Shown here piece after piece: positions 6,001-9,000 of a stretch of DNA of 46,150 nucleotides. The DNA is from Enterobacteria phage phi80. Every line of letters starts with the position of its first letter. Positions within the stretch are counted from its first letter, which is position 1. The position numbers were made by a program. The stretch lies in the sequence record NC_021190.1. The stretch is one strand, 5' to 3'.

Positions 6001-9000
6001 TTCCGTATTGAAGATGTCCTCTGGCCATCTGCCGTCACCGACGACAACATTAAACGTAACGCGTTCGCCGGTACTGCAATCAGCATCGTTTAATCCGCAT
6101 TTCTACAACCATCATCATTCATAAAAGCCGCTTGCGCGGCTTTTTTTACGGGAAAAATCTATGTCCGTTTACACCACTGCCCAACTGCTGGCGGTCAATG
6201 AGAAGAAATTCAAATTCGATCCGCTTTTCCTGCGTATCTTTTTCCGCGAAACCTATCCCTTCAGTACAGAGAAGGTTTACCTGTCGCAAATTCCTGGCCT
6301 GGTCAATATGGCGCTTTACGTCTCGCCGATTGTCTCCGGCAAAGTGATCCGCTCCCGTGGCGGCAGCACGTCTGAATTCACGCCGGGTTATGTGAAGCCG
6401 AAACACGAAGTTAACCCACTGATGACTCTCCGCCGCCTGCCGGATGAGGATCCGCAGAATCTCGCTGACCCGGTCTATCGCCGTCGCCGCATTATCCTTC
6501 AGAACATGAAGGATGAAGAGCTGGCGATTGCTCAGGTCGAAGAGAAACAGGCTGTTTCGGCGGTGCTCAGCGGTAAATACACCATGACCGGGGAAGCGTT
6601 CGAGCCTGTTGAAGTCGATATGGGCCGCAGCGCTGGTAACAACATTGTCCAGGCCGGTGCGGCTGCATGGTCAACCCGCGACAAAGAAACGTATGACCCG
6701 ACCGATGACATTGAAGCCTACGCGCTCAACGCCAGCGGTGTGGTCAACATCATTGTGTTCGATCCGAAAGGCTGGGCGCTGTTCCGTTCCTTCAAGGCTG
6801 TTGAGAAGAAGCTGGATACGCGTCGTGGTTCTAACTCTGAGCTGGAAACTGCCGTGAAAGACCTGGGTATGGCTGTTTCATACAAGGGGATGTTTGGCGA
6901 TGTGGCAATCGTGGTGTACTCCGGCCAGTACGTCGAAAACGACGTCAAAAAGAATTATCTGCCGGACCTGACAATGGTGCTGGGGAATACCCAGGCTCGT
7001 GGCCTGCGTACCTATGGCTGCATTCTTGATGCTGATGCCCAGCGCGAAGGTATCAATGCCTCGACACGCTACCCGAAAAACTGGGTGCAGTCGGGGGATC
7101 CGGCGCGCGAATTCACCATGATTCAGTCAGCTCCGCTGATGCTGCTGCCAGACCCTGACGCATTCGTCTCCGTCAAACTGGCATAACTTCCCCCAGTGGC
7201 CCTGTCGGGCCACCTTTCTGGAGTATTTCCCATGACAGAGAAAGAAAAGCTGATCGCTCGCCTGAATGACCTTGGCACTCAGCTTAACCGCGAGGTCAGC
7301 ACCAGCGGCACGATTCAGGAACTTACGATGCGTATTGCTGAGCTGGAAGAGGAGCTGGATGGTGATGCCAGTTCGATTGACGGTGAAAACGGAGAGAAGA
7401 ATGCTCCCGACAGCACCGACAGCACCGACAGCACCGACAGCGATGTAGATGGCACGGAAAAAGTAAAAACCGAAGCGGTCACAACGGATGACCGGGTATC
7501 AGTAGAAACGCTGGTGACCTTGCACATAAACGCGCTTCACGCCACGCGTAACGAGTCTGTGTCTATTGTCGAGCCTGGTGTCGTTATCCGCGTGACTGAC
7601 GTAGAGGCTAACGACCTGATATCTCGGGCGCTGGCCCGGGAAATCTGACAGGGGGCCTAATGGCTGATTTCGACAATCTTTTTGATGAATCGATGGCGCG
7701 CGCGGATACCACTATACGTGGATTGATGGGCGCAGAGGCAAGGATAACCTCAGGATCTTTATCCGGCGTCACGCTCCGGGGGGTCTTTGACGATCCAGAG
7801 AACATTGGTTACGCCGAAGTGGGGATCCGAATTGATGGAACCAGGCCGACGTTGTTTGTGAACACATCGGATGTTAGCGGGCTGGAAAGGCTGGATACGC
7901 TGAAGGTTAACGGGCGTGAATTTTGGGTTGATCGCGTTGGTCCGGATGATTGCGGGTCCTGCCATGTTTGGCTGGGTAGTGGATCACCTCCCGGCGGTTC
8001 GCGGCGTCGTTAAGGAGCATTCATGTCGATAAAAGGTCTTGAGCAGGCGATCGCTAACCTGGATAGCCTGGACAGAAATATGGTTCCCAATGCCAGCGCA
8101 TGGGCTGTGAACCGGGTTGCTGCTAATGGCGTCTCGGTTGCCGTCCGAAGGGTGGCGAAAGAAACGGTAGCCGGTGATAACCGCGTTTCGGGGATACCCG
8201 TAAAGCTGGTACGACAAAGGGTGCGAATCAACAAAGCCTCGGCGTCAGGGCACTCAGCGGCCCGAATTAAGGTTAACCGGGGCAATCTTCCCGCCATCAA
8301 ACTCGGTGCCGCGCAGGTCAGGGCGACGAATCGAAAGGGCCCGCTGGTTCGAAAAAGTAGCGTGTTAAGAATTGGCCGTTATGTTTTTCGCGACGCCTTT
8401 ATCCAGCGCCTGGCGAACGGCCGCTGGCACGTCATGAAGCGAATTGCAGGAAAAAGTCGTTATCCCATCGACGTGGTCAAAATTCCATTGTCCGCGCCCC
8501 TCACAACTGCTTTCGAAGCAGAAAAGAAACGCATGCTTGAAGAGGAAATGCCAAAACAACTTGGCTATGCCCTCAGGCAACAACTGAGGTTGCATCTGAC
8601 ACGATGAAACACACTCTCATTCGCCAGAAAATTATTGATGTGCTTGAAGAGGCCATCGGGAACGACGTCATGTTTTTTGACGGGCGTCCTGCTGTCATTG
8701 AGGAGGAGGATTTTCCTGCCGTTGCGGTCTATCTGACCGATGCGGAGTATACCGGCGAAGAACTTGATGCCGATATGTGGGCGGCAACGTTACATATTGA
8801 GGTCTTCCTGTCCTCGCAGGTACCAGATTCCGAACTGGATGAATGGATGGAAAGCCATATTTATCCTGCCCTCGCTGACGTACCCGGTCTCGATTCACTG
8901 TTAACGCTCATGGTTCCACAAGGCTTCGATTATCAGCGCGATGATGCGATGGGGTTGTGGACTTCCGCCGATATGAAATATTCAATCACTTACGAAATGT

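What the first reader, a model, noticed from the sequence alone, without database searches (positions are those of the whole stretch)
6125..6147. Strong terminator-like hairpin inside the late operon between D and E
A GC stem plus T7 sits between the decoration and major capsid genes, which are needed at similar high copy number. It may act as an RNA stability element or attenuator and implies reliance on Q-modified polymerase for read-through.
Basis: seen in the sequence. Interest (0 to 1): 0.35.

Follow-up and report, generated by a model that had tools for sequence, protein, structure and literature searches.

The report
Conserved terminator hairpin between capsid genes
A short GC-rich RNA hairpin followed by seven U's sits between the head-decoration gene D and the major capsid gene E of phage phi80. 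It is a real, conserved terminator-type signal, but it is already annotated in sister phages, so the finding is sound but ordinary.

Summary
The window is phage phi80. A perfect 9-nt inverted repeat (6123-6131 / 6136-6144; GC core GCCGC/GCGGC, loop TTGC) is followed by T7 (6141-6147). It lies in the 67-nt spacer between D (5761-6093) and E (6161-7186), on the late-operon strand. Sites this terminator-like occur 7 times on the + strand and never in 100 shuffles.

The same element is already annotated as a rho-independent terminator in N15, mEp237 (100% identical here), HK225, HK629 and 434, and lambda carries it too.

Comparative data extend this:
- D-E modules from Enterobacteriaceae, pseudomonads, Oceanospirillales and unclassified viral contigs keep a hairpin at this spot.
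- The loop is hypervariable, and the stem is either invariant or wholly replaced.
- The T-run usually abuts the stem, and G·U variants pair only in the sense RNA.
- E is also followed by a conserved hairpin.

Best reading: an intrinsic terminator that stops unmodified RNA polymerase and is overridden by the Q-loaded late polymerase (a Qλ-family gene is present). The hairpin probably also acts as an RNA decay barrier. Termination, read-through and stabilisation are inferred, not shown. A predicted promoter here and an SD-sequestering coupling helix were rejected. This is already known and of low interest.

The parts
5761..6093 (+). Gene D (head decoration protein, 110 aa), upstream cistron
   Evidence: ORF; Pfam PF02924, E = 3e-21; annotated as the head decoration protein in mEp237, N15 and phi80 records
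6094..6122 (+). C-rich, G-poor spacer between the D stop and the hairpin. Its length and sequence vary between phages.
   Evidence: Sequence; alignments. Real spacers pair less with the E Shine-Dalgarno than shuffled ones.
6123..6131 (+). 5' arm of the hairpin (AAAA + GCCGC core)
   Evidence: Inverted repeat; fold
6132..6135 (+). Tetraloop TTGC, hypervariable among relatives
   Evidence: 46 distinct loops among 71 distinct relatives; 13 loop variants among 80 exact-motif matches
6136..6144 (+). 3' arm of the hairpin (GCGGC core + TTTT)
   Evidence: core invariant in 36 aligned relatives
6141..6147 (+). T7 run (U-tract) directly abutting the GC core
   Evidence: Sequence. Nearly all enterobacterial relatives have T6-T8, most of them T7; most distant clades have a T-rich tail.
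6150..6153 (+). Shine-Dalgarno GGGA of gene E, 8 nt before the ATG. It is part of the conserved ACGGGA block that follows the T-run.
   Evidence: Sequence; conserved in phi80, N15 and lambda groups
6161..7186 (+). Gene E (major capsid protein, 341 aa), downstream cistron
   Evidence: ORF; Pfam PF03864, E = 1e-64
7196..7213 (+). Second conserved hairpin (GTGGCCC TGTC GGGCCAC) in the E-FI spacer, with a weak T tail (CTTTCT). It brackets E on its 3' side.
   Evidence: Sequence; -13.4 kcal/mol and conserved position in nearly all E lineages examined; annotated as a terminator in FN582354
41137..41946 (+). Late antiterminator gene Q (Qλ family)
   Evidence: Pfam PF03589, E = 1e-34. PF03589 is the Qλ family according to PMC9388147.
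42070..42098 (+). tR'-like intrinsic terminator downstream of Q (hairpin plus T7), the canonical target of Q

Best explanation
The element is an intrinsic (Rho-independent) terminator-type hairpin in the sense transcript of the phi80 late operon. It sits in the D-E spacer and is kept by selection.

Proposed mechanism:
1. RNA polymerase that has not been modified by Q forms the GCCGC/GCGGC hairpin (extendable by A-U pairs) in its exit channel while transcribing the U7 tract, and releases the RNA at about 6145-6148. Stray or leaky transcription therefore ends before E and everything downstream.
2. During lytic growth the polymerase that started at pR' carries Q. Q prevents terminator hairpins from forming in the exit channel, so that polymerase reads through and E is made.
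3. In the read-through RNA the hairpin folds behind the polymerase. There it most likely acts as a barrier to 3'-to-5' exonucleases for the D-containing segment, just as the separate hairpin after E would for E.

Shown here: the sequence and its fold, the strand, the position, its conservation and covariation, and the presence of Q and a tR'-like site.
Inferred: termination, Q read-through and stabilisation.
For: Form:
- Perfect 9-nt arms, a 4-nt loop and a T7 run abutting the GC core.
- It is intergenic, 33 nt past the D stop, and on the late-operon strand.
- This class of site occurs 7 times on the + strand against 0 in 100 shuffles.

Prior annotation: marked as a rho-independent terminator in N15, mEp237 (100% identical over 5700-6500), HK225, HK629 and 434.

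Selection:
- phi80 and lambda are about 73% identical across this region. They keep the stem, T7 and ACGGGA, while the upstream spacer diverged and carries a 12-nt indel.
- Among 71 distinct relatives there are 46 different loops, but the stem is always pairable.
- In 36 aligned sequences the core never varies, pair 7-22 splits GC 17 / AU 16, and 94% of cells are paired against 36-70% when the partner is slid.
- Several clades have wholly different stems at the same position (L158, L162/163, L166-168, L172, L176).

Strand: C-to-T changes in the 5' arm (GTCGC/GCGGC in L096, L121, L127, L130) keep a G·U pair only in the sense RNA.

U-tract: it abuts the stem in enterobacterial, pseudomonad, Oceanospirillales and unclassified viral-contig clades.

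Specificity: the exact motif occurs in at least 120 viral contigs. In 79 of 79 testable cases it lies between a D and an E homolog.

Context:
- A Qλ-family Q gene is followed by a tR'-like terminator.
- Q-loaded complexes ignore terminators processively by blocking hairpin formation (PMC9388147).
- Among core structural genes only three spacers exceed 11 nt (D-E, E-FI, M-L), and each holds a GC hairpin.
Against: - No termination, 3'-end or half-life data for this site in phi80 or lambda could be found.
- The GC core is only 5 bp.
- Q-loaded polymerase should ignore the site, so a terminator has no obvious job during late transcription, and no upstream promoter is known that would need stopping.
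- A few lineages keep the hairpin without a U-tract (L160, L162/163, L176). Some D-E pairs have a 12-22-nt spacer with no hairpin (L164, L187-189). Termination is therefore neither universal nor indispensable.
- The hairpin's 3' end stays 16-25 nt from the E start in the clades that carry it, while its distance from the D stop varies. That also fits a role in E translation or E mRNA processing.
- A review-type statement says the roles of such intra-operon terminators are unknown (phage L genome paper).
Confidence: 0.6

Rival explanations
1. The element is purely post-transcriptional. It terminates little or nothing in vivo and is selected as an mRNA decay or processing boundary. The D-E hairpin protects the D segment from 3' exonucleases and, after cleavage in the A/U- and C-rich spacer, caps the 5' side of the E message. 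The hairpin after E protects E's 3' side. Together they raise D and E mRNA above the neighbouring low-copy genes.
For: - E is bracketed by conserved hairpins on both sides in nearly all lineages, and the downstream one usually lacks a good U-tract.
- Some lineages keep the D-E hairpin without a U-tract (L160, L162/163, L176).
- D and E are the two high-copy head proteins (established knowledge of the lambda capsid).
- The only long spacers in the head cluster are these two.
Against: - An exonuclease barrier does not need a U-tract, yet a T-run abutting the stem is kept in almost all enterobacterial relatives and most distant clades.
- There are no decay or processing data.
- The major tail gene V, also high-copy, has only a 10-nt spacer after it and no hairpin.
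Confidence: 0.2
2. The element is a translation-initiation element for E. The hairpin insulates the E ribosome-binding site from upstream structure. The U-tract directly upstream of the Shine-Dalgarno serves as a ribosomal protein S1 / 30S docking enhancer, as described for the E. coli rnd leader, a hairpin plus U8 that resembles a terminator (recalled from memory, not checked here).
For: - The hairpin's 3' end is always 16-25 nt from the E start and the T-run abuts the SD, while the distance to the D stop varies.
- E needs the highest translation rate of the head genes (established knowledge).
- Blocking the 5' arm in silico lowers predicted RBS accessibility in 70 of 90 sequences.
- Real upstream spacers pair less with the SD than shuffled ones.
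Against: - The accessibility effect is tiny (0.59 against 0.55 mean unpaired probability), and the sequences are phylogenetically related, so the p-value is inflated.
- The strict adjacency of the U-tract to the stem is a terminator requirement, not an S1 requirement.
- The hairpin after E is placed the same way relative to the low-copy gene FI, so position next to an SD is not specific to highly translated genes.
Confidence: 0.12
3. The spacer holds a sigma70 promoter for gene E, as annotated in the partial phi80 record FN582354 (-35 at 6100-6105, -10 at 6119-6127, start at 6134 in window coordinates).
For: Annotation in FN582354.
Against: - The consensus promoter scan finds nothing here.
- The hexamers are TTTCTA and CATAAA, with a 13-14-nt spacer read from the sequence.
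- The -35/-10 stretch is diverged or deleted in lambda and other relatives, while the hairpin is kept.
- The proposed start lies inside the hairpin loop.
- Five other records annotate a terminator here.
Confidence: 0.02
4. It is a chance palindrome with no function.
For: Short GC palindromes occur by chance, and the core is only 5 bp.
Against: - No comparable site appears in 100 shuffles.
- The element is conserved across E lineages only about 40% identical in protein, with a hypervariable loop and stem replacement.
- In 79 of 79 testable motif matches it lies between D and E.
Confidence: 0.01

Closest known systems
Annotated 'putative rho-independent terminator' between the head-decoration and major-capsid genes of N15 (AF064539 5980-6004), mEp237 (JQ182730 5938-5958), HK225, HK629 and 434 (OL657226 6100-6120)
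   Same: Orthologous element: same genes on either side, same GCCGC-N4-GCGGC-T7-ACGGGA block. mEp237 is 100% identical to the window over 5700-6500.
   Different: Nothing of substance. Those annotations are also sequence-based predictions, not experiments.
Lambda tR' and the Q-antiterminated late transcription unit
   Same: An intrinsic terminator in a transcription unit whose polymerase is made terminator-resistant by a Qλ-family protein. The window has Q (PF03589) and a tR'-like site (PMC9388147).
   Different: tR' is promoter-proximal and is the regulatory switch. The D-E site is about 10 kb along the late transcript from the tR'-like site (through cos), between two structural genes, and has no demonstrated regulatory role.
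Intra-operon terminators of P22-like late operons (phage L, after the procapsid module)
   Same: A predicted rho-independent terminator inside a single-promoter, antiterminated late operon, next to capsid genes. The authors list partial termination, or stopping transcription that lacks antitermination, as possible roles (10.1101/2020.10.05.325894).
   Different: Different gene module (P22-type coat, no D/E), and the terminator follows rather than precedes the major capsid gene. No homology was tested.
Intercistronic stem-loop mRNA stabilisers (for example REP hairpins in malE-malF, or the puf operon hairpins). Recalled from general knowledge, not checked here.
   Same: A stable hairpin between cistrons of one operon downstream of the more abundant product. 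The proposed action is as a 3'-exonuclease barrier.
   Different: Those elements lack a conserved U-tract. Here the U-tract is conserved, which points to termination competence.
E. coli rnd leader: a terminator-like hairpin plus U8 needed for translation. Recalled from general knowledge, not checked here.
   Same: Hairpin plus U-run immediately upstream of a Shine-Dalgarno.
   Different: In rnd it lies in a 5' leader after the promoter. Here it lies between two cistrons, and no translation data exist.

Membership tests
Intrinsic (Rho-independent) terminator | G+C-rich stem of about 5-12 bp with a short loop | tested here: met
   5 GC pairs extendable to 9 bp, 4-nt loop, -13.1 kcal/mol, z = -3.25
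Intrinsic (Rho-independent) terminator | U-tract of about 7-9 nt immediately after the stem | tested here: met
   T7 at 6141-6147 directly abuts the GC core. Adjacency is conserved in relatives.
Intrinsic (Rho-independent) terminator | Lies on the transcribed strand, outside coding sequence, beyond the footprint of the terminating ribosome | tested here: met
   + strand of the late operon. The stem as extended (6123) starts 29 nt, and the GC core (6127) 33 nt, after the D stop codon. G·U variants pair only in the sense RNA.
Intrinsic (Rho-independent) terminator | RNA 3' ends or transcript release at the U-tract, in vitro or in vivo | not testable with these tools
   No transcript data are available, and the literature searches found none.
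Q-antiterminated lambdoid late operon | Q antiterminator gene upstream of the late genes | tested here: met
   41137-41946, PF03589, E = 1e-34. PF03589 is the Qλ family.
Q-antiterminated lambdoid late operon | pR' promoter with a Q-binding/pause element, followed by terminator tR' | tested here: inconclusive
   Strong terminators at 42070-42098 and 42362-42385 downstream of Q. A candidate TTGCAT-N17-TAGATT is read from the sequence, but the consensus scan does not list a promoter there. QBE was not examined.
Q-antiterminated lambdoid late operon | Q-loaded polymerase reads through the D-E site | not testable with these tools
   Inferred from the general property of Q-loaded complexes (PMC9388147).
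Curated RNA families (Rfam 15) | Match to a covariance model at gathering score | tested here: not met
   No match anywhere in the window.
Sigma70 promoter for gene E (FN582354 annotation) | -35 and -10 hexamers near consensus with a 16-18-nt spacer, conserved in relatives | tested here: not met
   Not found by the scan. The spacer is 13-14 nt. The region is diverged or deleted in lambda.

The most novel reading that the evidence does not exclude
The D-E hairpin and the separate hairpin after E may form an ancient two-hairpin bracket around the major capsid cistron. It is retained from enterobacterial to pseudomonad, Oceanospirillales and unclassified viral-contig D-E modules. On this reading the bracket sets D and E mRNA abundance after transcription (segmental stabilisation and processing), and termination competence is secondary.

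A side variant applies to the lambda clade only. There a second T7-T8 run lies 13 nt after the hairpin. That matches the geometry of the hypothetical 'Q-dependent terminator' proposed in PMC9388147 and could trim Q-loaded transcription before E.
Probability: 0.2. Interest if true: 0.45.

Novelty: already known. Interest (0 to 1): 0.2.

Why it matters
Terminator-like hairpins inside antiterminated phage late operons are common, and their roles are acknowledged as unknown (phage L paper). This one is a convenient test case. It is short, deeply conserved and specific to the D-E junction, and it sits in genetically tractable phages (lambda and phi80) that carry a second conserved hairpin after E. 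Simple mutants (stem-breaking, compensatory, U-tract only) could separate three possible functions: fail-safe termination, mRNA stabilisation and translation. On the practical side, vectors that express lambda or phi80 D or E, or D-fusion display constructs, from non-Q promoters should expect a stop signal between D and E. As a discovery, though, it adds little: the site is already annotated.

Tried and rejected
1. **Promoter reading (FN582354).** Rejected. There is no consensus match, the spacer is too short, and the region is not conserved.
2. **Translational coupling through an outer helix.** The idea was that CCC/CCG after the D stop pairs with the GGG of E's SD and encloses the hairpin, as seen in some minimum-energy folds. 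Rejected. In 22 spacer families the real upstream spacer pairs less with the SD than shuffled spacers (mean 0.28 against 0.39), and none is significant in the coupling direction.
3. **RBS insulation by the hairpin.** Only a very small predicted effect.
4. **Bidirectional terminator.** In phi80 the antisense strand folds equally well (-14.5 kcal/mol) but has only a U4 tail. The upstream A-tract is not conserved in relatives.
5. **Known RNA family.** No Rfam match.
6. **Formal covariation.** The support is modest, because the 5-bp core never varies in the alignable set. The stronger evidence is stem replacement in clades that MAFFT could not keep in register.
7. **Literature.** Searches for termination, 3'-end or stability data at lambda D-E found nothing. 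The lambda ribosome-profiling paper and the Casjens-Hendrix review are not in the held library. A re-analysis paper gave no per-gene mRNA data.
8. **Built-in terminator scan.** It misses this site, so I wrote a scan with a shuffle control.
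Full report
**Identity of the window.** The window is phage phi80. 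The partial phi80 record FN582354 matches 1-22908 at 99.7% identity. mEp237 is 100% identical, and N15 96% identical, over 5700-6500. The ORF at 5761-6093 is the head-decoration protein D (PF02924), and 6161-7186 is the major capsid protein E (PF03864).

**The observation.**
- The bases at 6125-6147 read AAGCCGCTTGCGCGGCTTTTTTT.
- The inverted repeat has arms 6123-6131 and 6136-6144, 9 nt long, perfectly complementary, 4 nt apart.
- The G+C core is five pairs (GCCGC/GCGGC), the loop is TTGC, and T7 occupies 6141-6147.
- As RNA, 6120-6150 folds at -13.1 kcal/mol with z = -3.25.
- The element sits in the 67-nt D-E spacer, 33 nt after the D stop. It is followed directly by ACGGGA (the SD of E) and the ATG at 6161.
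- The built-in terminator scan misses it, I think because it extends the stem through the A/T pairs.
- A scan of my own lists it among the compact canonical sites on the + strand.
- Under strict criteria there are 7 such sites on the + strand, 1 on the - strand, and none in 100 dinucleotide shuffles.

**Already annotated.** The orthologous site is marked as a rho-independent terminator in N15 (stem_loop 5980-6004), mEp237 (5938-5958), HK225, HK629 and 434. Lambda has the same block, GGCCGC CTGT GCGGC T7 ACGGGA, although J02459 does not annotate it. FN582354 instead annotates a predicted promoter for gene 8. I reject that reading for three reasons. The consensus scan finds nothing. The hexamers are poor and only 13-14 nt apart. 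The stretch is diverged or deleted in lambda, while the hairpin is kept.

**Conservation.**
- Across 5700-6500 phi80 and lambda are about 73% identical. Stem, T7 and ACGGGA are nevertheless identical, while the upstream spacer differs and has a 12-nt indel.
- From 132 loci encoding close E relatives I obtained 61 distinct upstream sequences. Nearly all enterobacterial ones show GCCGC-N(3-4)-GCGGC followed by T6-T8, with many different loops.
- E homologs only 39-44% identical in protein (Amphritea, Motiliproteus, Marinobacterium, Ectopseudomonas, Metapseudomonas) have a D homolog upstream. They carry a hairpin at the same place, often with the same core arms.
- Two further scans seeded with distant E proteins added pseudomonad-type and other unclassified viral contigs.
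- Over 71 distinct sequences there are 46 different loops. The stem is either the invariant core or a wholly different pairable sequence: GGACCGC/GCGGTCC, GCGGCTG/CAGCCGC, GAGCC/GGCTC, CCACAG/CTGTGG, CTGGCGGC/GCTGCCAG.
- In the 36 sequences that align without gaps, 94% of cells pair against 36-70% for slid partners. Pair 7-22 is GC in 17 and AU in 16. Four of the five core pairs never vary, which by itself says nothing either way.
- C-to-T changes in the 5' arm give G·U pairs only in the sense RNA. The structure is therefore selected in the late mRNA or at the transcribing polymerase, not as a DNA palindrome.
- The exact motif with ACGGGA occurs in at least 120 viral contigs. In 79 of 79 testable cases it lies between a D and an E homolog.

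**Features that bear on mechanism.**
- A T-rich run abuts the stem in nearly all clades. This is a requirement of intrinsic termination, not of an exonuclease barrier.
- A few lineages keep the hairpin without T's (L160, L162/163, L176). D-E pairs with 12-22-nt spacers have no hairpin (L164, L187-189).
- In the clades that carry it, the hairpin's 3' end is always 16-25 nt from the E start, whereas its distance from the D stop varies.
- E is also followed by a conserved GC hairpin just upstream of the next SD (window 7196-7213). Its loops vary and its T tail is usually poor.
- Among the core structural genes only three spacers exceed 11 nt (D-E, E-FI, M-L), and each contains a GC hairpin.

**Context for read-through.** The window encodes a Qλ-family antiterminator at 41137-41946 (PF03589). 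It is followed by strong terminators at 42070-42098 and 42362-42385 before the lysis genes. Q-loaded complexes ignore terminators processively by narrowing and extending the RNA-exit channel, which prevents terminator hairpins from forming (PMC9388147).

**Best explanation.** The site is a competent intrinsic terminator for unmodified polymerase and is overridden by Q-loaded polymerase. The hairpin then folds in the read-through RNA and probably serves as a decay barrier for the D segment, as the E-FI hairpin would for E. The sequence-level steps are shown. Termination, read-through and stabilisation are inferred. I give this 0.6.

**Rivals.**
- A purely post-transcriptional role, 0.2. The two-hairpin bracket around E supports it, but the conserved U-tract weakens it.
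- A translation element for E, 0.12. The fixed distance to the RBS supports it. However, predicted accessibility changes only from 0.59 to 0.55, and the hairpin before the low-copy gene FI is placed the same way.
- A promoter, 0.02.
- Chance, 0.01.

**An idea tested and dropped.** Some minimum-energy folds pair a CCC/CCG just after the D stop with the GGG of E's SD, which would couple E translation to D. In 22 spacer families the real spacers pair less with the SD than shuffled spacers do. The spacer therefore seems to avoid, not create, SD sequestration.

**Literature.** I found no experiment on this site. The phage L genome paper states that intra-late-operon terminators are common and their roles unknown. 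It suggests partial termination, or stopping transcription that lacks antitermination. Several key lambda papers are not in the held library.

**Verdict.** The comparative depth, the loop hypervariability and the second hairpin after E are modest additions. Interest 0.2; novelty: already known.

Noticed in passing
window 7196-7213 (tail to 7219), E-FI spacer: A second conserved GC hairpin (GTGGCCC TGTC GGGCCAC + CTTTCT) lies directly after E and just before the SD of FI. It is present at the same position, with variable loops, in nearly all E lineages examined (lambda: ATGGCCC TTCG GGGCCAT). E is therefore bracketed by hairpins.
   Followed up: partly
window 13996-14019, spacer between the tail genes M and L: A strong terminator-like site (GCTGCC TCCG GGCGGC + T8) lies in the middle of the tail genes. 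Together with D-E and E-FI it is one of only three spacers longer than 11 nt among the core structural genes.
   Followed up: no
lambda-clade loci (e.g. L097, L098, L100), between the SD and the ATG of E: In lambda-type phages the SD-ATG spacer is a second T7-T8 run that begins 13 nt after the hairpin (GCGGC T7 ACGGGA T7 ATG). This matches the geometry of the hypothetical 'Q-dependent terminator' (hairpin, spacer, U-tract) proposed in PMC9388147. phi80 has AAAAATCT there instead.
   Followed up: no
window 42070-42098 and 42362-42385: Two strong + strand terminators about 270 nt apart lie between Q and the first lysis ORF. The first looks like tR'. The A/T-rich stretch between them has no ORF of at least 60 aa listed, and I did not examine it further.
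   Followed up: no
L139 (FN582354) 7171-7195, compared with window 7170-7186: The partial phi80 record carries a 25-nt near-duplication of the last codons of E (CCGTCAAACTGGCATAA...). The window and mEp237 lack it. It is probably an assembly or strain difference, and it shifts that record's coordinates downstream.
   Followed up: yes
L099-L114, L120-L133 (genome-contig hits): Lambda-identical D-E DNA turns up on short, roughly 1x-coverage contigs in assemblies of unrelated organisms (Neobacillus, Kitasatospora, Shewanella, Bradyrhizobium, Akkermansia MAG and others). This looks like lambda DNA contamination of those assemblies.
   Followed up: no
window 7232-7648 (FI): The FI protein contains a short tandem peptide repeat (DSTDSTDSTDSD) in an acidic linker.
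   Followed up: no
window 6094-6122 and homologous spacers: The stretch between the D stop and the hairpin is C-rich and nearly G-free, with a recurring CATCA(T/C)(T/C)CA motif shared by enterobacterial and pseudomonad versions. It pairs with the E SD less than shuffled versions do.
   Followed up: partly
window 16695-16716 and 21553-21575: Terminator-like hairpins follow the moron genes MorF and cor inside the late operon. FN582354 annotates the cor one as overlapping a terminator on the opposite strand.
   Followed up: no
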